Of a DNA stretch of 64,000 nt, positions 8,210-59,792 are shown piece by piece (the first letter of the stretch is position 1; each line of letters starts with the position of its first letter). This DNA is from Hydrolagus colliei (taxonomy: Eukaryota), in the NCBI GenBank assembly GCA_035084275.1, contig CM068748.1, forward strand, positions 16,244,001 to 16,308,000, given 5' to 3'. The translations under genes were made by a program, and so were the position numbers. The notes beneath the pieces are model-generated. The model was not told the DNA's origin. It saw nothing but the letters and a program-made list of their open reading frames with translations, and did not search any database.

Positions 8210-8400
8210 AAACAGAAGTTGCTGGGGAAATTCAGCAGGTCAGGAAGCATCCATGAAGAAAGGAAAAGGAGTCAACGTTTCGGGTCTACAACCCTTCGTC
8301 ATGAGTTCTGATGAAGGGTTGTAGACCCAAAACGTTGACTCCTTTTCCTTTCTCCATGGATGCTGCCTGACCTGCTGAGTTTCCCCAGGAACTTCTGTTT
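8210..8400. mobile_element. Palindromic Penelope-like element terminal fragment with target-site duplication
   Basis: Inverted arms 8210-8301 and 8309-8400 (92 bp each, 6 mismatches). Flanked by 15-bp direct repeats TAAC(A/T)TTTCACAAAC at 8193-8207 and 8404-8418. Confidence 0.8.
8303..8341 (+). ncRNA. Minimal type I hammerhead ribozyme motif, probably inactivated
   Basis: Stem I GAGUU/GACUC, core CUGAUGA, stem II GGGU-UGUAG-ACCC, AAAA in place of GAAA (the opposite arm keeps GAAA), palindromic AACGUU stem III. Confidence 0.6.
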
Positions 8401-11100: not shown

Positions 11101-12125
11101 CATATTCAGATATACACCACGTGGGTACATTTGCCCAGTGAACTAGAGGCTTAACTTCATTAAAGTACGTTACAAAACAAAAGCTGAAGCAAAAGATCTT
11201 ATCAAATGGAAGACTTGTCCAAGGTTTAATGATCTAGTCAAATTTGCATAACATGTAAGAAACTAATCGAATTTGGGATCACCAATAGAAAATTAAGCTT
11301 GCTATATGGGGTTTTAGGCAACTTTGGCTGCAAATCTCTTTTTGATTTATTTAATTGAATGAAACAGCTGTGTAGCATAGGATTACACTAAACAATTATA
11401 TGCTCTGAAAACTAATAGAATAAACTTTCAAACAGATGTAATCTTTAGCAATTAACTATATTTTGTGACATCCTGTAATAGCTGCAACAATCCTCATGAA
11501 AATACAAGCTTCCATTCAGGCATCCAAAGCCATATCTAAAGGCCTTCACTTTCTAAAAGGGCTTGCTGATGTTTGTTGACAAGACTGAATGGGGTTACTT
11601 GTTGTCATGGTGCAAAACACTGTATTTATTTTCCTTTTATTGCTAGCAACAGGGAGCCTTTTTTAAATATACAAACCAACGTGCTTTGTATCTCCATCAC
11701 TATCTGAATTTCACAGTCCAGTTTCCTACTGTGTACTTTGTGTCATCTATTCAAGCAGTCAATTATTGCAGGGCTTCATCAAAATTTTTGAAGAATTAGC
11801 AAAAGTGGGGAAATTAAACATATTATCTTAAAACAGCTCGATCTCTTCATTTCACACAAGTCGTCAAAATCTTTCACACACAAACTGCTCACTTTTATGC
11901 TGACCATTCCTTTCTCAAGAGTGATTATTTCATCAATATTGAAGTCACTGCACAGCACTTTGAAACTTAGCGCTGGTTTACTTCAATGGTCTTGAATTGC
12001 AGTACTGTAATTAGGTATGCAAAAAATTCTCACACAAAGCCAATGATGTGGAAATCTAGACAACTGTACATTACTAGTTTATAGTTTTTTTTATAGTCTC
12101 CTACTAAGTTTTGACTACATTTTAA

Positions 12126-12302
12126 ATCGGTCATTTCAATCCATAACTGTTTCTAGGACACTGATGTGTGCAATTGGCTGTCGCGTTTCGCCCACAAATA
12201 TACAATCAATTCATTTTACAGTATATTCTGTGAAGTGCTTTGAGATGTCTGGATGACACGAAAAGCGCTATATCAAATGCAAGGATTATTATTATTGTTA
12301 TT
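12126..12302 (+). mobile_element. Younger tRNA-headed DeuSINE (family A), 5'-truncated
   Basis: ggacactgatgtgtgcaattggctg..cccacaaatatac..aaagcgctatatcaaatgcaaggattattattatt; closely similar to the 27k, 37k and 53k copies. Confidence 0.8.
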
Positions 12303-26710: not shown

Positions 26711-26965
26711 GGCTTACACATATTTCTGAGTTCGGTGACATCACTCTCAACAGTTCCTTCCATTCAACAGTGAGATTGCTGAATGATAATGTGCAATGTT
26801 TGAATACACCGAATCATTGTGATCCAGAAATCATTAGTCAAATTTGTTAAGCAGTTTTGGAATCTGTAAACGTTTAGTGAATTTTGTTTGCTTTTGCACA
26901 CCAAAATACATAACTTCACCGACATGACACAATTCATAAGCATCAATTCACATACAACATTATCA

Positions 26966-27275
26966 TTAATAATAATAATGCTTGCATTTGATATAGCGCT
27001 TTTTACGCCTTCCAGATGTCTTAAAGTGCTTCACAGAAAATACTGTAAAGTGAATTGAATGTATATTTTGTAGGTGAAACACGGCAGCCAATTGTGCACA
27101 GAAGTGTCCCACAAACAATCATGGATTGAGTGAATAAATCATTTTGTTTTCTGGAGGGGTATTATCAGGCGTGTGGAGTAAGTTAACTTGTTCAAGGTTT
27201 CGCACTGCCTGGAATCGAACCCAGGTCTCTTGCTTACCAGAGGAGTGCTCTAACCACTGAGCTACAGAACTCCTA
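26966..27275 (-). mobile_element. Near full-length tRNA-headed DeuSINE (family A)
   Basis: Minus-strand head GTAGCTCAGTGGTTAGAGCAC..GGGTTCGATTCC carries intact Pol III A and B boxes, followed by the shared body and a (tta)n tail. Confidence 0.88.
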
Positions 27276-35407: not shown

Positions 35408-35619
35408 NNNNNNNNNNNNNNNNNNNNNNNNNNNNNNNNNNNNNNNNNNNNNNNNNNNNNNNNNNNNNNNNNNNNNNNNNNNNNNNNNNNNNNNNNNNNN
35501 NNNNNNNNNNNNNNNNNNNNNNNNNNNNNNNNNNNNNNNNNNNNNNNNNNNNNNNNNNNNNNNNNNNNNNNNNNNNNNNNNNNNNNNNNNNNNNNNNNNN
35601 NNNNNNNNNNNNNNNNNNN
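35408..35619. other. Assembly gap (212 N)
   Basis: Run of N. Confidence 1.
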
Positions 35620-36534: not shown

Positions 36535-37245
36535 ACAATAATGATACTGTACTTGCTTTTTATATAGAGCTCTAACACATGGTTGAAATGTCTCAAAGTC
36601 CTTCACAGAACTTTTACTGTAAAGTGTAGGTACTGTGTAATTGTAGGACCTAGCAAACTAGCCAGCTGATTGTTGGCCAAGACCTTTGCACACATTTTGC
36701 GTTGTGATATGGAATGTGTACAGGCAGACAAGACCTCACCTCAATTGAACAATTTATAAAATAAATAAATAATAATCCTTGCATTTGATACAACGCTTTT
36801 CAGGTCTAGGCATCCCAAAGTGCTTCACTGAATATACTGTGATGTGAATTGACTGTTAGTTTGTGGGCAAAGTGCAGCAGCCAATTGAGCACAGCAGTGT
36901 CTTACAAACAGTCGTAGACTGAAGTGACCAATTTATTATTGGGTTTTTTCTTGAGGGATTATTATTGAGGTATGCAGAGTAAGAAAACTTGCCCAAAGTT
37001 TTGCCTTGCTGGGAATCAAACCCAAGTTTCACGCTTGCAAGGTAAGTGTTCTAACCACTGAGCTACAAGAACTCCACCACTAAGCTGCAGGACTCCACAA
37101 TGGGACCTCTGACAATGCAGCATTCCCCAGCATTGAGTTTCAGCCTTAGATTATGAGTAATGAGTTCAAAGTTTTGGTAGGAGGCTAGAACCTGCAACCT
37201 TCTGATTTAGAGGCAAGCATGCTAATAACTGAGCCAAGTTGACTC
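36535..37245 (-). mobile_element. Nested SINEs: family A copy (about 36764-37100) inside an older SacSINE-type element (36535-36755 and 37100-37245)
   Basis: The inner copy has a tRNA head and (tta) tail. The outer pieces (..caggcagacaagacctc..aattgaac / gggacctctgacaatgcagcattccc..aactgagcc) are colinear with the uninterrupted 56952-57355 copy. Confidence 0.8.
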
Positions 37246-47769: not shown

Positions 47770-47896
47770 CATATCATCCTTGGGTTTCACAACTTTCATA
47801 AAGGCACCCCGAGTTGTGGCTTCCTCCCGTTCTTTTCTTGTGACTTTTCTTGCATCTAAAAACTTCAGGTTTGTCAGTTTGTGAAGGATGAAATAC
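47770..47896 (-). CDS. LRMDA: LRMDA internal coding exon (127 nt, LRRcap)
   Basis: Translates to (R)[42 protein letters not shown], embedded in ORF 47674..48111. Acceptor is catcttcttttccag|G, donor is ATG|gtaagg. Phase matches the previous exon (AG+G = Arg). Contains an LRRcap-type YRxFxxxxLxxLxxLD motif across the junction. Confidence 0.95.
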
Positions 47897-48429
47897 CTGG
47901 AAAAGAAGATGCTTTGGTTGCTGGTAGAAGTTGCACGTACAGTGTAATATCTACAGAAAACAGTCTGTAGAAAGCAGGTCAATTCAACAAAGAAAAACAA
48001 ACAAACCAACAAAGTAGAGATAATGAATAACTGAGAGACAACAAGGACTGACTGGATTCTATAACAGATACAATAGCCCTGAAGGATTAGGGCAAAAATA
48101 GCAAAAGACAAGAAATAGCAGTGGGGTCAAGGGTGAAGAGAGATAAGGCAACAGAGTCGACTGTGCAGCATAAAAGGTGTACACAAAACTCCTTCCTTCA
48201 CTTGAGAAAAACAGTAAACAGCTTATGCTAGAAAACAAAATTTTGGTTTCTCCAAGCATTCATGGTGTCAGCCTAGCTCATTTGGTAGCAATCTTGCCTT
48301 TAAGTCAATAGGCTGTGAGTTCAAGGTCGCTTGGCCTACACTCCAATGCAATATCTTGTCCGAGTGTTGAAAAAAAAAAGGTACTTTCTTCCAGGGCCCT
48401 GGTTAACAATTCCCCCAGGATACTATCCT

Positions 48430-48806
48430 AAACCTATAAGATTCTTAAGGGGTATGACCGAGTAAACAGTGGGAGACTGTTTCCCCTGGTAGGAGAAACT
48501 ATAACTAGGGGTCACAGTCTTAAGATTAAGGGTCAGCCTTTTCGAACAGAGTTGAGGAAACACTTTTTCACTCAGAGGGTAATGAATTTATGGAATTCTC
48601 TACCCCAAAAGGCTGTAGATTTTCAGTTCTTGAACATATTCAAGAACTGAGATTGATAGATTTCTCATGGATAGAGGGGTTAAGCGATATGGTGTGGGCA
48701 GATGGAGTTATTTTCGAAGATAAGCTGTGATCTTATTGAATGACGGGGTAGGCTCAAGGGGCTGAATGGACTACTCCTGCTCCTTTTTCTTATGTTCTTA
48801 TGTTCT
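48430..48806 (+). mobile_element. Relatively young CR1 3' end inserted in a SINE
   Basis: Encodes TYKILKGYDRVNSGRLFPLVGETITRGHSLKIKGQPFRTELRKHFFTQRVMNLWNSLP; tail (ttcttatg)n; GATACTA repeated at 48419-48425 and 48807-48813. Confidence 0.9.
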
Positions 48807-49002
48807 GATACTAGGAGAAACTCCCTTCTCTTTTTGAACAGTGGCATGGGATAAAACTAGTAATTGACTTCACGGCTCTTTGTGGGACATGGCTGTGTGC
48901 ATATTGGCGGGATGTTCACTTACATATACTGTACATGGGTGGGGGATCACTGCATCTTACAATAAATTACAAAAAAGTACTTTGAGACATCCTCCAAACC
49001 TC

Positions 49003-49310
49003 AAATAACAACAACAAAATTACATTTGTGTAGCAGTTTTCACATCAAAAGGATGCCCAAAGATGCTGGACAGACAGTATTTTTAACCCAAGATGGACCT
49101 CCAGATTGGAGAGGGTGGATTGCAGTGGGGAAGAAGGTTGATTGAAAGCAGTCAAAGATTGAGGGACCTGAAGGAGGCAAGAGATGGAGCAAGGCAGGGT
49201 GAAGTTTCAGAAGGTGGGGGAAGATTGTTTGAAGTCCCACCTGCCAATGATGGGGTGGGCGAGGTGGGGGACGTGAAGCAGGGGGGGGCGCCTGCTTCAC
49301 ATCCAAAATA
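49003..49310 (-). mobile_element. L2 LINE 3' fragment
   Basis: acaacaacaaaattacatttgtgtagc tail plus a purine-rich body like 21051-21535. Confidence 0.7.
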
Positions 49311-50574
49311 AATACCAAAGTTATTATGTATCCACAACATCAACTTGCCCTTATATAGCATCCTCCATGTAGGGGAGTGTCTCAGAGCACTTAAAATGCA
49401 AGGATACCGAATATAAGGATCACTGTTAAGGAGTTTAAGTTGTCTAATTTAGATCAATGTGACTTCACTTGAATACAAGTCTTGTAAAATTCTGCTTAAG
49501 TACTGATTTCTCACATTTGTTTGCCCTCCCCCCCAACCACTATTGGTTATTTACTCAGTTTTATTTACCACAGCTAAGATTCAGCTTACTGGTCTTCCCT
49601 TTAGCCTCAGATTTTTTGCAAACATAGAAAGATAATATATAATATTTAAATTTGGTTTGAAGCTATTTTCTCCATAATTTAATTGAATCAATTATTATTC
49701 TATAAGCTTTAAACTATTTTATTAAAATACACAAAGTGCATAGCTTGAATAACTGAGTTACAGAGCCTTGGAACCTTGTTTATAGGCAGCTTGTAAACTA
49801 TTTCTAATGTCTCACACAAGCACTTAAGAAAAAGACAAGGATCTATTCCAAGCAGCAATTGTGAGGAAACTGCAATGCTCACTTGCAGCAGACTTTAACA
49901 GCCCATAACAGATTGTTTACTGGGAGACAAATTGTGCCAACATGGTAAGATAAGTTACCTCAGTACAAACCACAAATTTAGCTTGGGTTTTTCCTAGTCA
50001 ATGTAGCCCACACCGTAGAAGGCATTTGTTCAGTGAGTTTGTCAAAGGGATAGGGTTAAATATCGCAAGGGCACATCAACTAGCAGTTAAGATGCTGGCA
50101 TGGTTTGTCTAAGCAAATTTAAGCAAAATGTCTAGATCCACCTTTACAGAGGAAAATGGTAATTTCTTGCCTTAAGGGAGCTTAATAAGGAATGCAAGGT
50201 CAATGCCCTTTCCTACTGTAGGCCTAAAATGCTAGTTATTACTTTCCACGATGGTAGAAAAATCTTATCTCAATGGCAATGCTTGGATCCAAAGTGAATG
50301 GAAGAGTACAAGTTTCAGAAGTCAAGTAAATCATTATTTGATTATAATGTGAATTTTTGGAAGTATATTGAAAAAACACTACACAAAGCATAGTGATTGC
50401 TTAACATCGGGCATACACATTAAATTTGGAACATTTACAGGAGCTAAAGACTGTGAGCACTATGGACAATTCTGGTAAATTGAAGCAGTTTTTATTGTTT
50501 TCCGAAGGGAGTGAATTGAGATAACATTGTTTTTCCAAGCTGTTTATCCCTTTTCATCAAGCTCCTGTCATTTC

Positions 50575-50900
50575 TACTCAGATGGGCAGTACGTACGGGT
50601 TACCATGTCCCTTTGCAGTTTACTGTTTGTACTTATGTTGGGAGTGTTCCTGATGTGGATGTCTGCTTTTGGCAGGAAGCCAGGTACATAGACAAGATCT
50701 TGAAGAATTTCTCCAGATTCAGCCTCAGTGAGTACATGATTTTGTTTGGGGATCACTAGTCTTTCACGGTGCATTGTGTCATGCTGGTCAGATGGTGGCA
50801 GGGAAAATCTATCTTCTGCCACTTCAGTGCAATTCAATATCCAGATGCAGTTTGATGAAAACCAAGGCTTGTCCATGTTAAGGATTGGCAGGGTCATTTT
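50575..50900 (-). mobile_element. Possible decayed LINE ORF2 internal fragment
   Basis: ORF 50574..50897 contains DKPWFSSNC, resembling the PW motif in the endonuclease-RT linker of LINEs; otherwise degenerate. Confidence 0.3.
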
Positions 50901-51899
50901 GGATGTTCAAGGAGAAAGACAGATTGAGAACTGGCTAGAGATGAGCAATTGGATTTATTCAAATTGTTTATTTGAGTTCTCCCCCAAGTTTTAGGTAGTC
51001 TAAATCCAAATCTTAATACTGTGCGAGATGTCACCAGACAGTATCTACCTGGATAGTCAAGGAAATGGGTGCCTCAAATTAAAAAAAACTGCTGGTAAAT
51101 ACAACAAACAGAAACACAGAGTTGGTTGTTAAAAATTCCATGCTACTACTTGAAAAGAGATATTCTCAGTGTCCTGGCCAACTATCCACCAGATTATTTA
51201 GTTATTCACTCATGGATGTTCGATTGTATATTTGTCTGTGTGCAAAATAGCTGTCAGGTTCACCTACAAAGAGCTGTCACTACATGTGACATTAATTGGT
51301 GTGAAGTTTGGCTCTGGTCTGTACTGAGTCAGCTAAGGCACAAGAATTGATTTCCCAATCCTGGCATTTTATCCAAAGATTTCGCAGATAATATGAACTG
51401 TGGACTATGGGCGTGCATTTTGGATGATCACAAAATTGCGATTGCCTACAATGCATCCACAGATAAATACCTAACTCTCATAAAACGAAGCTTTATAACA
51501 CAAGAAGGGCCTCTTGATTATGGTATCAGTGGATTGTCGATGCCTGTGAAAAATGAATATATTTTATAGAGTACATATGAAGAATTCACAATTTAAATGT
51601 ATAATCATTTTGAATTATTTTAAAACAAAATTATGCTATTATTTAGTTACATTTACTGCCATAGCTCAAAAGTTAATCAATTTTAAATCAGATTTTTATG
51701 TTGAGGTAATTCAAATCCCCAAATTATTCAGCACTATCAACTAACAGTTTTGAAACTGTCTGAATCCTTCCCTCTTTTGGGCATATGTTGAAGATGGGAA
51801 ATTAAATTCAGTTTGTCTCAAATAAATCTGAGCTCCACCTTATAAAAGCACAACTTATAAAGGTTGTTGAATTGAAGATCCTCAACCTCATGGTCTGCA

Positions 51900-52190
51900 A
51901 GCCTAATATCCCACCTGCTCCCTCTGCTCAGCAAACGCATGCCTGCTGCGTGCCCCATTCTATTGGCAGGTGAGCTTCCTGCCATTTTGACTCACTGGAA
52001 TTCTAACCTGGTGTCCCTCCACCTTACCCCTTCCCTTCCCTCCTTTAAGGCCCATATTAAAACTTATTTTATTCTACCGCGCTTTCAGTCATCTTCCCCA
52101 CCCAGCTCACATTCCCATTTAGCTTTGTGAAGCACTTTCAGAGGTTCTCTGAATATGAACTTGTAACATAAATATAAACTGTTGCTGTTC
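51900..52190 (+). mobile_element. Decayed L2 3' end
   Basis: ctggaattct..ccctccaccttacc..cctcctttaaggcccatattaaaactt..tgtgaagcacttt..ataaatataaactgttgctgtt. Confidence 0.6.
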
Positions 52191-53211
52191 GAGAATTTCA
52201 TATGAAGATAAAGCGCAACACATGATCCAAATACTACTGGAACAAAGGCCATGAACATTACATTGATAGTTTAAATCTGAAACAAACAGCAGAGGCCAAA
52301 ATAATGATAGCTATTACTACCATTAAGTGAAATATAAGAAGAGGAATGTTAACTTAAAAGAACATGTAAAGGCCAGTGGAGACCATCCAAATAAACAGGT
52401 TTGCGATATCTGTACACATCACAATTTTAAATAATTTGAAAATCTTCATTGCGCATAGTTTTCCAGTACTACAACTGGCATTACGTCAAATGGAAGTGAA
52501 AGTAACTTTTGAGAATAAAAACTGGAGGAAACAGTCACATATAAAACTAGTCCACATGTCTGCAATTTCACTCCTAAAAGAGTTACTTGTAATTTCCTGT
52601 ATGGCCTACCACAAGGACCCAGTGATGGAGCTCCATAAATACCATTAAAGTTTTATGGTTTCTACATAGACCCTGTTGAAATATGTCATTACTGAAAGGT
52701 ATTTCATGCTACTAATTCTGAGAGGCAGAATCCAGAAAAAGAAAAACAACATGCAGCAAGAAGTTGCTTTCTAATAGCTGCTTGTCTGATTGTCACAAAT
52801 GCATGTTGACATTTATTTACAATATTTATACAGAATAAAACACATCAAGACATCAGGAAAACGCCTTGTGTCAAAAGATTTATTCCAGCACTGCCTGAGT
52901 TGGTTAATTCATACGTGGGTCCTGCAAAGAAAATTGAGTATGGGAATCAAAGAGTCCTACATTTACTTTTAAATGAAAAAGTTTGCCTTTATTTAGGAAT
53001 ATTTTTTTCTGATTTGAATTCTTTAAAATTATTATTCATGCCTTTCCCCCCATGAGATTGGCTGGGCACTCATGAAGACACAGGATGCAATGGCATTTCC
53101 ACAGAAGAAGCCCCAAGGTACACAAGCCATAATGAGTTGCTGCTTATAGGAACTATCAAACATTAACAATAACTTCACCATACTGAAAAAAGTAATGGAC
53201 AGAAAGTTATG

Positions 53212-53476
53212 AATTCAAGCGAGAAACCTGGATTTGATTCCCTTCAGGAGAAACCTTGGGCAAGTTTTCTTACTCCGCGTGCCTGACGATAATCACCCCC
53301 CAAAACTAATAAATTGGTCACTTCAATTTAACTGTGTGGGACACTGCCGTGCGCAATTGATTGCTGTGTTTTGCCCACAAATATACAATCAATTCACTTC
53401 ACAATATATTCTGTGAACCGGTTTGAGACATTTAAAAGACATGAGAAGCGCTACATTAAATGCAAGGATTATTATT
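53212..53476 (+). mobile_element. Family A SINE
   Basis: caagcgagaaacctggatttgattccc..aaaccttgggcaagttttcttactcc..aaatgcaaggattattatt. Confidence 0.85.
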
Positions 53477-53849
53477 TTAAGATAGACAAAATTGATAAGT
53501 GGCGCTTAATAAGGTAGAGGCAGCTCTGTCGTCAAAAAGCACCTAAAAATCATAGGCATCATTGTATGTTAGATATGCACTGTGACAAATGGAGATGAAA
53601 AAAGAAGATACAATTTCCTAAAAAAACCTAAAAGTGAAGCCGCCTACATCCTAGAGGAAAGACTGCAAGGAGGATAGAAAAAACATTAATGATCTTTGAC
53701 AGCTGATGCCAAAGATGGCTCTCATGTGACTGTTATAAACCATGCTCAAATTTATAGTCCTCTCCATGATGAAGAAGCAGAATGTAGTCTAAGTGTCAAA
53801 AGAAAAAGGTTCAGCCAAGAACTAAAAATAAGAAGTTCGGTATCACCTA

Positions 53850-54118
53850 ACCAGGATTTATTCCTCCGTTCACCGTCAGCGGCTGTGCCTTCAGTCACTA
53901 TGCCCCGTAGCTCTGGAACTCCCTCCCTCCTCACTCCCTTTGCCTCGCCTCCTCTTTTCCCATTTTCGGGTCGCACCTGAAGACTTTTCTGTTTGACCAC
54001 GCCTTTGGTCACCTTTTCCCCCCTCCCACTGGCTCGGCCCCAAGCTCCATTTTGTGAAGCGCTCTGAGATGCTGTCTGGTGTGGAGGGCACTATATAAAT
54101 CCAAGTTGTCGTTGTTGA
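53850..54118 (+). mobile_element. L2 LINE 3' end
   Basis: gccttcagtcactatgcccc..ctctggaactccctccct..ctgaagacttttctgtttgacc..gggcactatataaatccaagttgtcgttgttg. Confidence 0.8.
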
Positions 54119-54469
54119 CTTCATGCATCTCATCTTCTCCCCAAACCTTTGACAATCAGTTGCATTGTAGACATAGGTCACCTATATTAACATGGTTTCC
54201 CAATATACTCATTTGTCCATAGGTTTATGTTTAATATCCATATTAGAGAGGAAAAGACACTTGCAGAATTTGAGAAAAGGGTTGCTGGCTGCCAAGACTT
54301 AGTGCTTCAGGTTTGAGTACATAACAGCAACAACAACAACAAAATTACATTTGTGTACCGCCTTTCACGTCAGGAGGACGTCCCAAGACACTGGAACCTC
54401 TTGGAACCTCTGAATTCTCAGATACTTTCTATCGTTTTGTAAAAGTACAGGAACATCAGCTAAGCTGTC

Positions 54470-54663
54470 CAATAATAATACCTCCAAACAAAACACAATA
54501 ATAATATTGGTCATTTCAATCCAGGATTGATTGTGGGACACTGCTGTGTGCAATTGGCTGCTGCGTTTTGCCCACAAATGTACAGTCAATTCACTTTACA
54601 GTATATTCTGTGAAGTGCTTTGAGACATCTAGAAGATGTGACAAGTGCTATATTAAATGCAAG
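54470..54663 (+). mobile_element. Family A SINE 3' part, preceded by an opposite-strand L2-type tail (54323-54395)
   Basis: ttgtgggacactgctgtgtgcaattggctgctgcgttttgcccacaaatg..gtgctatattaaatgcaag. Confidence 0.8.
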
Positions 54664-56951
54664 CTGCTCATGGAAACCAAATCCCCTGTGCGAATACTAA
54701 TCAAAGTGCACTTGCCATCTTTGAAGACTGGTCGCTGTATTTATGATGGATGGGAACTGAGACTGAATAAGAATTATCCTTCCAAAATGATGAATCCCTA
54801 GGTTTACCTTGATGGAAATAGACCAATTCCACCAATACACTGATTATGATTTTTAAAATCCACCTCTCCCTTCCCAATCCCTGCCCAACCCTCACCTTCC
54901 TCCTTGCTTGCAATCGACTCCATCTTTGTGCTCAGAGACATAATCTTATGCTACACAACAAGTTGCACTTATATACAGCGTCCTCCACTCCGGGTAATGT
55001 CTCAAAGCACTTAAATGCTATTGCCACCTCAGAGACGCAAAAACACGGCTGAGATGAAAATAATGGCCAACAATTTGAAAGCACCTCCTTATCAAACCTG
55101 TCACATCCTTTGGACACGTTACACTTCTCCTCTCAGGATTTTCCAACCTATTTCCTTGAGCACTCTGCTCCATTAATAAATAGAACTTCAATATGCAGCT
55201 TGAATAGATACAAATTGACACGAAAGTCAATGTATAAATGTAAATTTGTATTGTAATTAGCATTATATTGGTGGAGAAAATTGCTCTAGAAAATGAATGA
55301 CAATACTGTACCAGGGGTAAGTATAATACTGTTGTACTAATCAATACTATGAAAAACAATATTTTTGGGGAGGGGAAATGCAGCCAATTACATTCAAGGC
55401 AGAAAACGCATGAGAGGAAACTGAAGAAAATTGAAACAAGTGAAGGGAAGACAACAGACATAATAAACTTTGACAACAAAAATATGGGAATGATGCTGAT
55501 ATGAGGCAAATGTTACTCCAGGAAGGAACACACGGGCTGGTTTGTAGTGGAACTGCCTTCAGGTTGTGTACTGGTATAGGATGTCATGTTATGACTTATT
55601 GCAACGTCAAGCACTCTGAGACGCCAACCGACATGGAGGGCGCTTTATAAATGCAAGTTGTTGTTTGTTGACTTAAAAAGAGGTTGTTCAAGTGATTTTC
55701 ATACGCAGCCGGAATCTATTGAGTCAAAGACAGCAGTAGCAGCGAGGAACATCGTTTTGGGGGCATGTTTGTTAGGAATAATAAACCTATTAATAAGCAG
55801 TGTAACAGGCTGGAAACTGCTGGTCAACAAAGATCTATTTGCAAATGCCTCTGGCTTTGTTGAATTAAGAAATATTATTGTACTTTGAGGAGGTTTATGG
55901 TTTTCACCTGAAGTGAGTTACAGTACAATACCAGATTTAAAACAACCCATACATTGTGTAGTTGAAGCCTGTTAATTGGGACCCCCTGGTGTAAATGAAA
56001 TAGTCCGATTTATCAGATCATTCCCCATCAAGCAAAACCCATCAGTGCTGATTTAAATTGCGAATCAATTAGTGCCTGTGAAAATGTACCCATTAACCAT
56101 TAACAGGCATCAAGTCTAATCATACACTGGGTTTCCCTGTGCTGCTACAGAATTCAGCAATTCTGTTTGGATTGTGTTGCATCACTTTGATCTGCACTGG
56201 CCTGATGTTTTTCACATCATTTTCAAAGACTACAGTGGCTAGGGATAAGACAAAAAATTATTAATTGATGAGAAAATATTTTCCTCTCATTCTCCCCATA
56301 CTGTTGACAAACTCATAGTGATTTTTAAATCCCATTCACGAGGGTTGATGAGAATCAACAGTTTTAAAGGCTCAGTGTTGTCCGAATGTTCTGGCTTCCA
56401 GCCCTGAAATTCATACAAACAGGAACTAGGAAATCTGCCTAAAATGTAAGGACCATTTCCAGGCCCAGAATATGATGGTTACATGGAACATGAAACCAAA
56501 TACTTAAACATCTGCAAAAGAAAAAATAAAGTAGAAATAAATTATGAAATGACTTTTGGGATTGTAACTTGCCCAGGACAGCAGATCGTACCAGTATAGT
56601 GTTCCCTTGTCCAAAATCCAGCTAAAGTACATAAATCAAATCTGAGACATATTTTATAGCACCAAGGCAAAGCTGCATGTATGCCACTATTTGTGCTACG
56701 AATGTAGTTTATTGCCAGTGCAAATGGCAGACAGATCCTTCTTGTGTAGCCAATGATAATAGCCTGTTATGACTTGTACCTGTCAGGACTTGTAGATAAA
56801 GATTCATCTGCTATATGCCATTTCAACAACAACAACAACTTGCACTTACAGTATAAAGCTCCCTCTATGCAGGCTAGAATCTAATAGTGCTTCAAAGAAT
56901 GACTCACCTCCCCTTACACAACAATGTCCTTGACTGCAATTCATTGGATAC

Positions 56952-57355
56952 AATAATAATCATTGCATTTGATATAATGTTGGGAGGATATCTCAGAGCA
57001 CTTCCCGGGATTTTACTGTAAAGTGTAGTGTATATTGTGTAGGCGAATGCAGAAGCCAAGTTGAATAAAGCAACATCCTTCAAACAGCCAAGAATTGAAC
57101 ATTTAATTTTGTCTGGCGAGGGCACTGGGAGAATCTCCAATCTCTCTTAAGAGTAGTACCATAAATGTTTTTACGTCCAACTGAACAGGCAGACGGGCGT
57201 CAGTTTAACATCTCATCCAAAGGATAGCATGCCAACAATGCACACCCCAGGCACTGCAATAGAGTGTCAATCTAGACGATGAGTTCAAAATCCAGTCATG
57301 GCCTTGAACACACAATCTTTAGACTCAATTTTTAGAGTGCTACCAACTTAGACAG
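56952..57355 (-). mobile_element. Near full-length SacSINE-type DeuSINE
   Basis: Tail aataataatcattgcatttgatat, body ccaactgaacaggcagacgggcgtcagtttaacatctcatccaaagga, degenerate tRNA head ccttgaacacacaatc..agagtgctacc. Confidence 0.75.
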
Positions 57356-57923
57356 CATGGATGTGCAGGGGCCCACTCCAATGTGTAATGTCCTTCATAT
57401 GGACATGGCTAAACTTGGCTAAACTTGCATATATTGTACTTGGAAACCATTGTATGGACAGCATTGTACCAAAATCGAGCCATCACTGTACTCTAATAGA
57501 TAAAATTAACGATGCTCATTTAATTCACAGTAAAAAACAGTAAATTTCTGCACCAGCTTTCCCAATGTTTCATGCACAAACCCAGTACAGTACAGTATAT
57601 TGTTTACTATTAATAGCACCAATTTTTGAATGTGCTTCTTCTGATCTATGGTTGGGTGAAACGCTATAAATATTATATCCTACTGTAAAGGTTGTCAGTT
57701 GTGTACGATTTTTTGACAGCGCTAAATGAACCATACATGCTTGCCGCTGAATGCTTTCCTTAAGTCACTCCTATTGTGTTAATGATTAATAGCTTGTGTG
57801 TTATGAACAAATGTGACTAAAAGTTGAAAACGATGAACCGGTAAGGAAGAACATTTACTTTTACACGTTTTGTCAGCAGACGAACAGAAGACATCTCGAC
57901 CCATTCATAAAGAGAACACTAAC

Positions 57924-58063
57924 CTGTATCTCTGGTAGTCACTTTCATCGTTGTCCAAACTAACAAGTTCATTGGGACAGGCTTTATTTCCGAGAAGACT
58001 GAGGTACTTAAGGAAAGGCAACACTTCAGCTAAATGATCCAAAAGGGTGTCTAATTCTGTTAT
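57924..58063 (-). CDS. LRMDA: LRMDA internal coding exon (140 nt)
   Basis: Translates to [46 protein letters not shown](R), matching recalled human [49 protein letters not shown] acceptor follows a TCCTTAAC branch site; donor is AG|gttagt. In frame with both neighbouring exons. Confidence 0.95.
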
Positions 58064-59665
58064 GTGTCAAAGGCCATGGGTTAAGGATTCAATCACGTTA
58101 ATGAAAAAGCATTTATAAGGAAGCACTCATAGGTAAAAAATTATATACATCACTGACTGACAATCAAATTTACTGCAGCACTCAAGACATGTCAAAGTTA
58201 TTGTTTAGGGGGCAATTCATAGCAAACACATGTCAGAACGTTGGCATATATTGAAAGAATGTGGCTCTTTTTAGTTTACTTTCTTTCAAAGGTGGTTCAC
58301 TGAAAACATTTAAAACATTGACAAAATGATGGATGTTGTGTGGCTAAATGGTAAGCAATTGTTGAAACTGAAACTTTTCCAACAGGAAACAAACAGCTAC
58401 TTCACACTACATCCATCACTAATACATTCAGTCCATTGTAAAATGAGTCTGCAGTGTCAAACAATAACAGCCTTATTCCCCACAAGAATATAAATGCTGT
58501 CTGATAGCTCTGTGCAGTCATAATCAAGTCGCCAGCAACTTCTGAGCACCAGTGAGTGCTGTTGTCCTTTCACAGACTCTGCCGGCATCATTATTTTTAC
58601 GTACAGCAGTACAGCCTGGGTAATTTAAGAGTTGTACATAAATCATGTTGGTATTTTAATCTCCTCTTTTCTTGTGAAGGTGCAACTCTCTGGTACCTCA
58701 TCGTGTTGCCCATCCCTTACTTGTGATCCTGGACAGTGAATGTCTCCAATAAATTTGACTTTGGATACATCGCGGCCAAGACTGACTTCAGTCCCGGCTT
58801 CAGGTTACTTATGTGTCCTTCCAGCAGGGGCCGCTGGAGAGAGATCATAAGCAGGAAACCTGGTTAGTTTTCCCCATCCCAAGTCCAGGGGCATTTAAGG
58901 ATGACTGTGACATCACTCCTGTTGCCCCATCTGAGAAGAGCTAACTCAGCACAGACTGGGGATTAAACCTGGAGCCTACCTGATTTGTGTGGATTAGTTC
59001 CATACAAAATCATGAAAAAGGTTATTTTATGGGGGGGGGGGGTGGGGGGGGGACACACACACTAGAGACAGAACCATAAACAGCGTGGGTTGTAATAAAG
59101 GCTGCAGTAAATTTGAGAATGGTGTAACAATTACTTACTCTGCTAGAAATAGTTTGAGATTTCACATTTCCTTCTTCCTGTGAGAGCTCCTGAATGGAAG
59201 CTTCATACATACATAAAGGTACTATTTAGTTGAATAAAGCAATTCAGCATCTATCTAAATGTAATAAAAAAACACAAGGAACACCATTAATACGTTATTG
59301 GTGCATAGCCAATTCCTTGCTTACTTTTTCTGTGGGCCTGATTTTATCTCATTCAATAATCATTCCAGCAGAGGGCTCCCTGCCATCCAAGACAATCTCT
59401 TTCCTGCTTTCTTTTTTTAAAAAATAAGCATTTTCAATCTCTACAGTACTTAAAGATTTTTTTTTACACACCGTAACAATCCTGTGTTACAAAGCAAAAG
59501 TGCAACACAAATAGAGACAAAACAGGATTACAAAGCTTATCCCTCCTTTAGTGTGAATTTTTGCAAGTTAGTTTCTAGCGCACCATCTCAATTTGGACAA
59601 AACTGCAAGTGCTTCCCTTTAATTGGGGCACTGTGTAATTTACAACATCACTGTGCAAAGGATAT
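58064..59665 (-). other. LRMDA: U12-type (minor spliceosome) AT-AC intron of LRMDA, 1602 nt
   Basis: 5' site ATATCCTTT (59665-59657), branch site TCCTTAAC (58087-58080), terminal AC (58065-58064). Splicing here yields the continuous peptide NKNQ|ITELD. Confidence 0.93.
58690..58995 (-). mobile_element. Old SINE-like repeat, family B, inside the U12 intron
   Basis: ctggacagtgaatgtc..ccagcagggg..ctgg..gatc..agcaggaaacctgg..agctaactcagcacagactggggattaaacctgg. Confidence 0.65.
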
Positions 59666-59792
59666 TTGATTCTTGTTGATTGTCAGAGTATGAAGGTGTG
59701 GTAACCTGGGCAACTGGAGGTCATTTGTGAGGAGATTGTTGTCCAGAATCAGCTCTTCTAGGCAGCTGAATGCTTCCAGTCCTTCCAATGAC
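59666..59792 (-). CDS. LRMDA: LRMDA internal coding exon (127 nt, LRR region)
   Basis: Manual minus-strand translation gives (R)[42 protein letters not shown], closely matching recalled human LRMDA ([43 protein letters not shown]). Acceptor is ttcccttgttgttgcag|G; the exon ends at U12 donor |ATATCCTTT. Confidence 0.95.

What the first reader, a model, noticed from the sequence alone, without database searches (positions are those of the whole stretch)
58064..59665. Textbook AT-AC minor-spliceosome intron in LRMDA
Seen: the LRMDA frame is maintained only if the intron starts ATATCCTTT and ends ...GACAC, with TCCTTAAC ending 16 nt upstream of the exon. Known: these are the U11 5' site and U12 branch consensus; U12 introns are well under 1% of vertebrate introns and AT-AC is the rarer subtype. 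Inference: GT-AG gene finders would mis-model this junction. A decoy CAG 7 nt into the exon and a second AC 2 nt upstream would both frameshift. LRMDA is a melanocyte/albinism (OCA7) gene, so its output may be limited by the minor spliceosome.
Basis: partly seen in the sequence, partly recalled or inferred. Interest (0 to 1): 0.75.

Follow-up and report, generated by a model that had tools for sequence, protein, structure and literature searches.

The report
Conserved AT-AC minor intron in LRMDA
The albinism gene LRMDA of what is likely a chimaera (a shark relative) has a 1.6-kb gap between two coding stretches with the exact signals of the rare minor-spliceosome AT-AC introns; it is likely spliced that way, the same intron is already catalogued in human and mouse, so it is ordinary, although many public protein models misread this junction.

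Summary
Confirmed but already known. On the minus strand a 1602-nt phase-0 gap (59665-58064) starts ATATCCTTT, carries TCCTTAAC 16 nt before its end and ends CAC. It separates two LRMDA coding stretches that match Callorhinchus milii at 42/42 and 45/46 residues, so the host is likely another holocephalan. This AT-AC pair scores best of 270 candidate pairs; no stop-free in-frame GT-AG or GC-AG pair within 90 nt loses fewer than 48 nt. The human and mouse intron at this junction is listed as minor in MIDB; the human one is typed AT-AC and is retained more after CENATAC loss or ZRSR2 mutation. The branch site lies farther upstream than the 11-13 nt optimum, with a frameshifting decoy AC 2 nt closer. 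No reads were laid on this junction, so splicing in this species is inferred. That the intron limits pigmentation is untested. The scan noted AT-AC introns in other genomes before, none in LRMDA.

The parts
59666..59792 (-). LRMDA coding exon upstream of the minor intron (exon A, 127 nt), preceded by a TTGCAG major-type acceptor
   Evidence: 42/42 residues identical to C. milii LRMDA P0003 residues 49-90; acceptor context
58064..59665 (-). 1602-nt phase-0 AT-AC intron of U12 type
   Evidence: best-scoring of 270 candidate splice pairs; same codon position as the human intron
59657..59665 (-). U12-type 5' splice site ATATCCTTT
   Evidence: only RTATCCTTT match in the window; same nine bases as the human and mouse sites
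59648..59650 (-). in-frame TGA six codons into the intron; retention or any downstream GT donor gives a premature stop
   Evidence: 12 of 12 in-frame GT-AG pairs with a donor in the first 60 intron bases stop at this codon
58080..58087 (-). U12-type branch site TCCTTAAC, adenosines at -19 and -18
   Evidence: no CTTRAC in the last 45 nt before the other two acceptors
58066..58068 (-). decoy GAC acceptor 2 nt upstream of the true end (frameshift)
58064..58066 (-). CAC 3' splice site
   Evidence: the human intron also ends CAC
57924..58063 (-). LRMDA coding exon downstream (exon B, 140 nt), with decoy CAG at 58059-58057; ends at a GTTAGT major-type donor
   Evidence: 45/46 residues identical to P0003 residues 91-136
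47897..57923 (-). next intron, ordinary GT-AG, 10027 nt
47770..47896 (-). following LRMDA coding exon (exon C, 127 nt; boundaries inferred from homology and AG/GT ends)
   Evidence: 38/42 residues identical to P0003

Best explanation
The stretch 59665-58064 lies between two LRMDA coding exons and carries AT-AC ends, a U12 donor and a U12 branch site, and it is likely removed by the minor spliceosome to give the in-frame join N-K-N-Q / I-T-E-L. By established mechanism (Turunen 2013, passages) the U11/U12 particle would bind the ATATCCTTT donor and the TCCTTAAC branch site together, either adenosine could serve as branch point, and the 3' end would be chosen by distance; here that is the CAC 17 nt after the second adenosine. 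Failure is predicted to be unproductive: retention meets a TGA after five codons, and the two nearest decoy acceptors frameshift to stops more than 100 nt before the next junction, which would likely trigger nonsense-mediated decay. The intron is the orthologue of the catalogued human and mouse LRMDA minor intron, so it likely dates at least to the ancestor of jawed vertebrates. Shown: motifs, frames, homology, shared position. Inferred: splicing and decay in this species.
For: Motifs at homology-defined exon ends, joint chance about 9e-10. 29 of 32 homologues from the first search abut the two exon peptides with no gap and ordinary residues, down to insects. 9 of 9 Logan proteins in a skate-like cluster, on contigs of at most 2.6 kb and so likely spliced transcripts, read N-Q / I-T-E-L. 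Human and mouse LRMDA are listed as minor-intron genes with the same nine donor bases (PMC6717393 supplement rows). The human intron (chr10:76036135-76047163) is typed AT_AC, with retention 0.035 to 0.647 after 48 h CENATAC depletion (unadjusted p 2.7e-5, few reads, no adjusted p given), 0.028 to 0.173 with ZRSR2 mutation (adjusted p 2.6e-12) and 0.047 to 0.234 in CENATAC patient cells (adjusted p 0.10) (PMC8280824 supplement rows). 71 of 150 protein records read I-S-F straight after N-K-N-Q, the translation of an AT-type U12 donor: 62 bird (chicken included), 3 turtle, 2 sturgeon, 3 C. milii, 1 unnamed (taxa counted by hand from the source names). C. milii has U11, U12, U4atac and U6atac genes (PMC11347168 supplement rows).
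Against: No reads or transcripts of this species were laid on the junction. The branch adenosines are at -18/-19, beyond the 11-13 nt optimum; the human spacer after the branch motif is 9 nt against 16 here. The decoy GAC is 2 nt nearer the optimum. The published orthology table classes the C. milii orthologue as 'major-like'. The MIDB human table gives cryptic 5' and 3' site use a mis-splicing value of 1 in all eight tissues (six pass its filter) for this intron; at face value that means other sites are used, though a junction slide by the aligner would give the same pattern (my inference, untested). No intronIC or weight-matrix score was computed.
Confidence: 0.95

Rival explanations
1. The intron is U12-type but leaky: the long branch-to-end spacer lets the -2 GAC or the +7 CAG take a notable share of transcripts, which are decayed, lowering LRMDA output in this lineage. 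This adds to the main reading rather than replacing it.
For: Branch adenosines at -18/-19 against an 11-13 nt optimum; decoy AC 15 nt after the second adenosine, true AC 17 nt. U12 3' site choice is described as error-prone. The human intron shows an alternative-acceptor flag in ZRSR2-mutant cells.
Against: The true site is CAC like the human one and the decoy is GAC (a preference for a pyrimidine at -3 is recalled, not from a call). Exons A-C are intact and close to C. milii. No read data.
Confidence: 0.2
2. The exons are joined by the major spliceosome through nearby GT-AG or GC-AG sites and the U12 motifs are relics, as the 'major-like' call for C. milii would imply.
For: C. milii orthologue classed 'major-like' in PMC11347168 Table S8. 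GT dinucleotides exist at intron +15, +20, +23 and +35, and AG at exon +7 and +13. MIDB human cryptic-site values of 1.
Against: Only 6 of 153 GT-AG or GC-AG pairs within 90 nt are in frame and stop-free and all lose 48 nt or more of a conserved repeat region; 12 of 12 in-frame pairs with a GT donor in the first 60 intron bases and an AG within 40 nt of the junction hit the TGA. That table used Ensembl 99 models; three UniRef C. milii models read into the U12 donor while the RefSeq protein has the clean join.
Confidence: 0.02
3. It is a major-class (U2-type) AT-AC intron: right ends, wrong machine.
For: U2-type AT-AC introns exist (85 in the human set). Pyrimidine share before the AC is 0.65 against 0.70 and 0.80 at the two major acceptors, so a tract is not clearly absent.
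Against: The donor is the full U12 consensus and the branch site is U12-type, which are the defining features. The human orthologue responds to CENATAC loss, whereas none of the 85 major AT-AC introns did.
Confidence: 0.02
4. The locus is a silent or decayed copy and the intron is not spliced at all.
For: Only three exons fall in the window; the rest of the gene was not found in it.
Against: All three exons are stop-free with 42/42, 45/46 and 38/42 identity to C. milii and intact splice signals.
Confidence: 0.01

Closest known systems
Human LRMDA minor intron (chr10:76036135-76047163, 11029 nt) and mouse Lrmda minor intron (6431 nt), in MIDB (PMC6717393 supplement rows) and the A-type list of PMC8280824
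   Same: Same gene, same codon boundary after N-K-N-x, phase 0, same nine donor bases ATATCCTTT, U12 branch motif, and (shown for human) AT-AC ends with a CAC terminus.
   Different: Shorter intron (1602 nt). Branch motif is the full TCCTTAAC as in mouse (human has TTCTTAAC). Spacer after the branch motif is 16 nt against 9 in human, and it holds a tandem decoy AC that the human site lacks. Spliceosome dependence is shown for human only.
U12-type A-type (AT-AC) introns as a class (Turunen 2013, PMC3584512; de Wolf 2021, PMC8280824)
   Same: Defining 5' site and branch sequence, AT-AC ends, one minor intron between major splice sites.
   Different: Branch-to-end distance above the stated optimum; phase 0, which is under-represented among U12 introns overall (PMC7367187 passages).
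Callorhinchus milii LRMDA (RefSeq XP_042192536.1; UniRef A0A4W3HVP8, A0A4W3IEQ5, A0A4W3IEQ2)
   Same: Nearest protein; RefSeq has the identical N-K-N-Q / I-T-E-L join; the three UniRef models read I-S-F after exon A, which indicates the same donor.
   Different: Five residue differences over 130 and a different intron start (I-S-F-A-Q-stop here, I-S-F-T-R there) point to another species; its genomic intron was not available; its catalogue class is 'major-like'.

Membership tests
U12-type AT-AC intron | 5' splice site of U12 consensus (RTATCCTTT) | tested here: met
   Exact match at the exon end, the only one in the window; identical to human and mouse donor bases.
U12-type AT-AC intron | U12 branch sequence near the 3' end | tested here: met
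   TCCTTAAC at 58087-58080; absent before the two major acceptors.
U12-type AT-AC intron | AT and AC terminal dinucleotides | tested here: met
   of the four equivalent junction positions only this one has AT-AC ends and the intact donor.
U12-type AT-AC intron | Short branch-to-3'-end distance (optimum 11-13 nt) | tested here: inconclusive
   Adenosines at -18/-19: above the optimum but inside the windows MIDB (-40 to -1) and intronIC (-55 to -5) search. A working range up to about 20 nt is recalled, not from a call.
U12-type AT-AC intron | No distinct polypyrimidine tract | tested here: inconclusive
   Pyrimidine share 0.65 against 0.70 and 0.80 at the major acceptors; the branch motif itself contributes.
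U12-type AT-AC intron | Weight-matrix or intronIC score in the minor class | not tested
   No matrices were on hand; human and mouse orthologues score 94 and 98 for the 5' site in MIDB.
U12-type AT-AC intron | Host has U11, U12, U4atac, U6atac genes | not testable with these tools
   No genome is held for the window; none of these RNAs lies in the window; C. milii has all four.
U12-type AT-AC intron | Removal depends on the minor spliceosome | not testable with these tools
   Shown only for the human orthologue.
LRMDA (C10orf11, OCA7) gene family | Orthology of the flanking exons | tested here: met
   Every top named hit is LRMDA, best E 4.8e-20 and 2.6e-18; three exons collinear with P0003.
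U2-type AT-AC intron | AT-AC ends without the U12 donor and branch consensus | tested here: not met
   Both U12 elements are present.

The most novel reading that the evidence does not exclude
The LRMDA AT-AC intron, held in place from chimaeras to humans, is a dosage gate on melanosome building: when minor splicing drops, LRMDA is among the first pigment genes lost, and this explains the skin and retinal hypopigmentation reported in some MOPD1 (RNU4ATAC) patients. Grounds: the human intron is strongly retained on CENATAC loss, LRMDA loss causes OCA7 through the RAB32-LRMDA-Commander complex, and hypopigmentation is described in a few MOPD1 cases. Against: OCA7 is recessive (recalled), baseline retention is 3-5%, six other pigmentation genes are in the same minor-intron gene list, and nothing in this window tests it.
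Probability: 0.12. Interest if true: 0.5.

Novelty: already known. Interest (0 to 1): 0.15.

Why it matters
Little that is new: the intron is in the human and mouse catalogues. Two modest uses remain. It extends the LRMDA AT-AC intron to a holocephalan, so it likely predates the split of cartilaginous and bony fishes. And it shows a concrete annotation trap: 71 of 150 fetched LRMDA records translate the donor, and the 'major-like' class given to the C. milii orthologue in a 263-species study is probably such an artefact, which would inflate apparent minor-to-major conversion. The link from minor-spliceosome disease to albinism through LRMDA would matter more but is only a hypothesis.

Tried and rejected
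No genome is held for the window, so snRNA genes and the rest of the gene could not be sought. No reads were laid on the junction, so it stays unobserved. Motif enrichment over the whole window was tested and is absent. GT-AG and GC-AG alternatives were enumerated and rejected. The N- and C-terminal LRMDA exons were sought in the window and not found. A GT at intron +23 coincides with a C-K pair in bird and turtle read-through models, which suggested a conserved nested major donor; I do not claim it, because here it lies behind a stop, its context is weak (GTT|GTAAAT), and the bird evidence is back-translated from gene models only. Zebrafish, chicken and invertebrate catalogue entries could not be read: the zebrafish supplement was too large, PMC6865273's four supplements had no LRMDA row, and Table S8 rows for other species were not reached or were cut before the LRMDA column. 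File 13 of PMC8280824's supplements was not searched; bioRxiv supplements are closed. Full-text searches with no relevant paper: LRMDA + minor intron, 0; C10orf11 + U12, 6 listings, none on splicing class by title; minor spliceosome + pigmentation + melanocyte + U12, 0; RNU4ATAC + LRMDA, 0. These cover only the open library's main texts.

Full report
Observation. On the minus strand, a 127-nt exon (59792-59666) is followed by ATATCCTTT; 1602 nt later the sequence reads TCCTTAAC, 16 more bases ending GACAC, and a 140-nt exon (58063-57924) that starts ATAACAG. The motifs are not enriched in the window as a whole: RTATCCTTT once against 1.68 expected, TCCTTAAC four times against 2.41. Their placement is what counts: with the exon ends fixed by homology, the chance of an exact donor, a branch motif in a 15-nt band and a terminal AC is about 9e-10 under a simple independent-composition model.

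Gene and host. The exon peptides hit LRMDA (best E 4.8e-20 and 2.6e-18). Against Callorhinchus milii RefSeq LRMDA the three exons in the window match 42/42, 45/46 and 38/42 residues, with sharks and rays at 85-91%. The host is therefore likely a holocephalan other than C. milii (inference; the intron start also differs). No genome is held. The acceptor of exon A and the next intron (10027 nt) are ordinary major-type; neither acceptor has a CTTRAC in its last 45 nt.

Which splice sites. Of 270 AT-AC, GT-AG and GC-AG pairs within 90 nt of the junction, 22 are in frame and stop-free. The stated pair aligns best to seven non-Callorhinchus homologues (mean 377). Only 6 of the 153 GT-AG or GC-AG pairs pass, and they lose 48 nt or more. 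So 'only' is slightly too strong, but no canonical pair can give the conserved protein. Read-through meets TGA at the sixth intron codon, which also closes 12 of 12 in-frame pairs with a GT donor in the first 60 intron bases and an AG within 40 nt of the junction. The -2 AC and +7 CAG decoys both stop at codon 44, over 100 nt before the next junction, so decay is predicted.

Support from relatives. 29 of 32 homologues from the first search abut the two peptides with no gap and ordinary residues; two read into the intron and one lacks exon A. Nine of nine Logan proteins in a cluster whose named members are skates read N-Q / I-T-E-L on contigs of at most 2.6 kb; they are likely spliced transcripts, which shows the product in a relative but not the intron ends. 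Among all 150 fetched records (the 32, 12 further cluster members, and the best 120 of 374 hits, overlaps merged), 76 have a clean join, 71 read I-S-F right after N-K-N-Q, one reads I-S-L (a low-quality record, not counted), one has a gap-free join outside my pattern and one lacks exon A. I-S-F is the translation of ATA TCC TTY, so these records are gene models that ran through an AT-type U12 donor: 62 bird including chicken, 3 turtle, 2 sturgeon, 3 C. milii, 1 unnamed (counted by hand from the names). Many bird records look alike and likely come from one pipeline, so they are not independent, and the set is the top of a ranking, not a random sample.

What is in print. PMC6717393 (supplement rows, passages, sections 9 and 10 seen) lists LRMDA as a minor-intron gene in human and mouse, with the same nine donor bases, intron lengths 11029 and 6431 nt. 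PMC8280824 (supplement rows, passages, section 11) types the human intron AT_AC at the same codon boundary. Its retention rises from 0.035 to 0.647 after 48 h CENATAC depletion (unadjusted p 2.7e-5, few reads, no adjusted p), from 0.028 to 0.173 with ZRSR2 mutation (adjusted p 2.6e-12) and from 0.047 to 0.234 in patient cells (adjusted p 0.10). PMC7507305 (supplement row, passages) lists LRMDA with OCA7 among disease-linked minor-intron genes. PMC3584512 (passages) gives the defining features and the 11-13 nt optimum. [quoted passage not shown] PMC12491506 (abstract and section 9) and PMC9703636 (listing and passages) describe LRMDA as a RAB32-Commander adaptor in melanosome biogenesis, expressed beyond melanocytes.

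Results against or complicating. First, the branch adenosines are at -19 and -18, beyond the optimum; the human spacer is 7 nt shorter and has no tandem AC. Some leak to the decoy is possible and untested. Second, the MIDB human table gives cryptic 5' and 3' site use a value of 1 in all eight tissues for this intron. A junction slide by the aligner would explain it, since donor and next exon both begin AT, but I did not test that. Third, PMC11347168 (supplement rows, passages) classes the C. milii orthologue as 'major-like': LRMDA is ENSG00000148655, column 164 of Table S8, and the C. milii row reads major-like there. That study used Ensembl 99 models. Three UniRef C. milii models misread exactly this junction while the RefSeq protein is clean; that those models derive from Ensembl is recalled. 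The class is therefore probably an artefact, but I could not see the C. milii DNA. Fourth, no reads from this species were laid on the junction.

Mechanism and verdict. Most likely (0.95) this is a U12-dependent AT-AC intron, orthologous to the human one, removed by U11/U12 recognition of donor and branch site and distance-based choice of the CAC. It both works like and is filed as a U12 AT-AC intron: donor, branch and termini were tested and met, distance and tract were inconclusive, machine dependence could not be tested. The claim that it limits pigmentation is open: A-type introns splice less efficiently as a class, but human baseline retention is 3-5% and minor introns are often efficient. 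Skin and retinal hypopigmentation is described in a few MOPD1 cases (PMC4667643, passages), and LRMDA is one of seven pigmentation genes in a minor-intron gene enrichment row (log q -0.84, not significant); four searches found no paper joining the two (open-library main texts only, and supplements I could not see may bear on this). The scan's earlier notes hold 72 findings on U12 or AT-AC introns, none naming LRMDA; they did not change my reading. Novelty: already known. Interest 0.15.

Noticed in passing
PMC11347168 Table S8, column 164, C. milii row; proteins P0010, P0014, P0035: The C. milii LRMDA intron is classed 'major-like' in a published orthology table while three C. milii protein models translate the U12 donor; probably an annotation artefact. 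21 of the 188 cells seen in that row are major, major-like, minor-like or non-canonical and may include more such cases.
   Followed up: partly
proteins P0051, P0068, P0073, P0091, P0093, P0144, P0150: The first 20 codons of the intron read through identically in a turtle and several birds (I-S-F-Q-R-N-T-C-K-M-S-N-E-F-Y-V-S-A-K-L). Zebra finch 'isoform X4' records extend exon A by about 60 nt and then join exon C, skipping exon B in frame, which may be a real major-donor bypass of the minor intron. The window has a stop at codon 6 and cannot make it.
   Followed up: partly
window 59643-59638 (-): A GTAAAT at intron +23 sits where bird and turtle read-through models have C-K (58 of 64 C, 56 of 64 K); turtle models P0047 and P0048 carry the +5 residues that a +22 donor with the +7 AG would give. 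Possibly a conserved nested major donor, possibly chance.
   Followed up: partly
window 60152-60048 (-): The N-terminal 35 residues of C. milii model P0014 match this stretch at 100%, although they are unlike the N-terminus of other LRMDA proteins; likely intronic sequence taken as an exon by that model.
   Followed up: no
window 8210-8400: Near-perfect inverted repeat of about 190 nt, 92% self-complementary; possibly a small DNA transposon.
   Followed up: no
window 26961-27273, 36761-37075, 53216-53484, 54470-54664, 12123-12301 and others: A dispersed repeat family of 150-320 nt with tRNA-like heads at 27200-27271 and 37002-37072, consistent with a tRNA-derived SINE.
   Followed up: no
window 35408-35619: Assembly gap of 212 N; downstream LRMDA exons were not found in the window.
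   Followed up: no
window 49432-49425 and 49407 (-): Inside the next intron, a TCCTTAAC lies just upstream of a GTATCCTTG; order and spacing do not fit an intron, likely chance.
   Followed up: no
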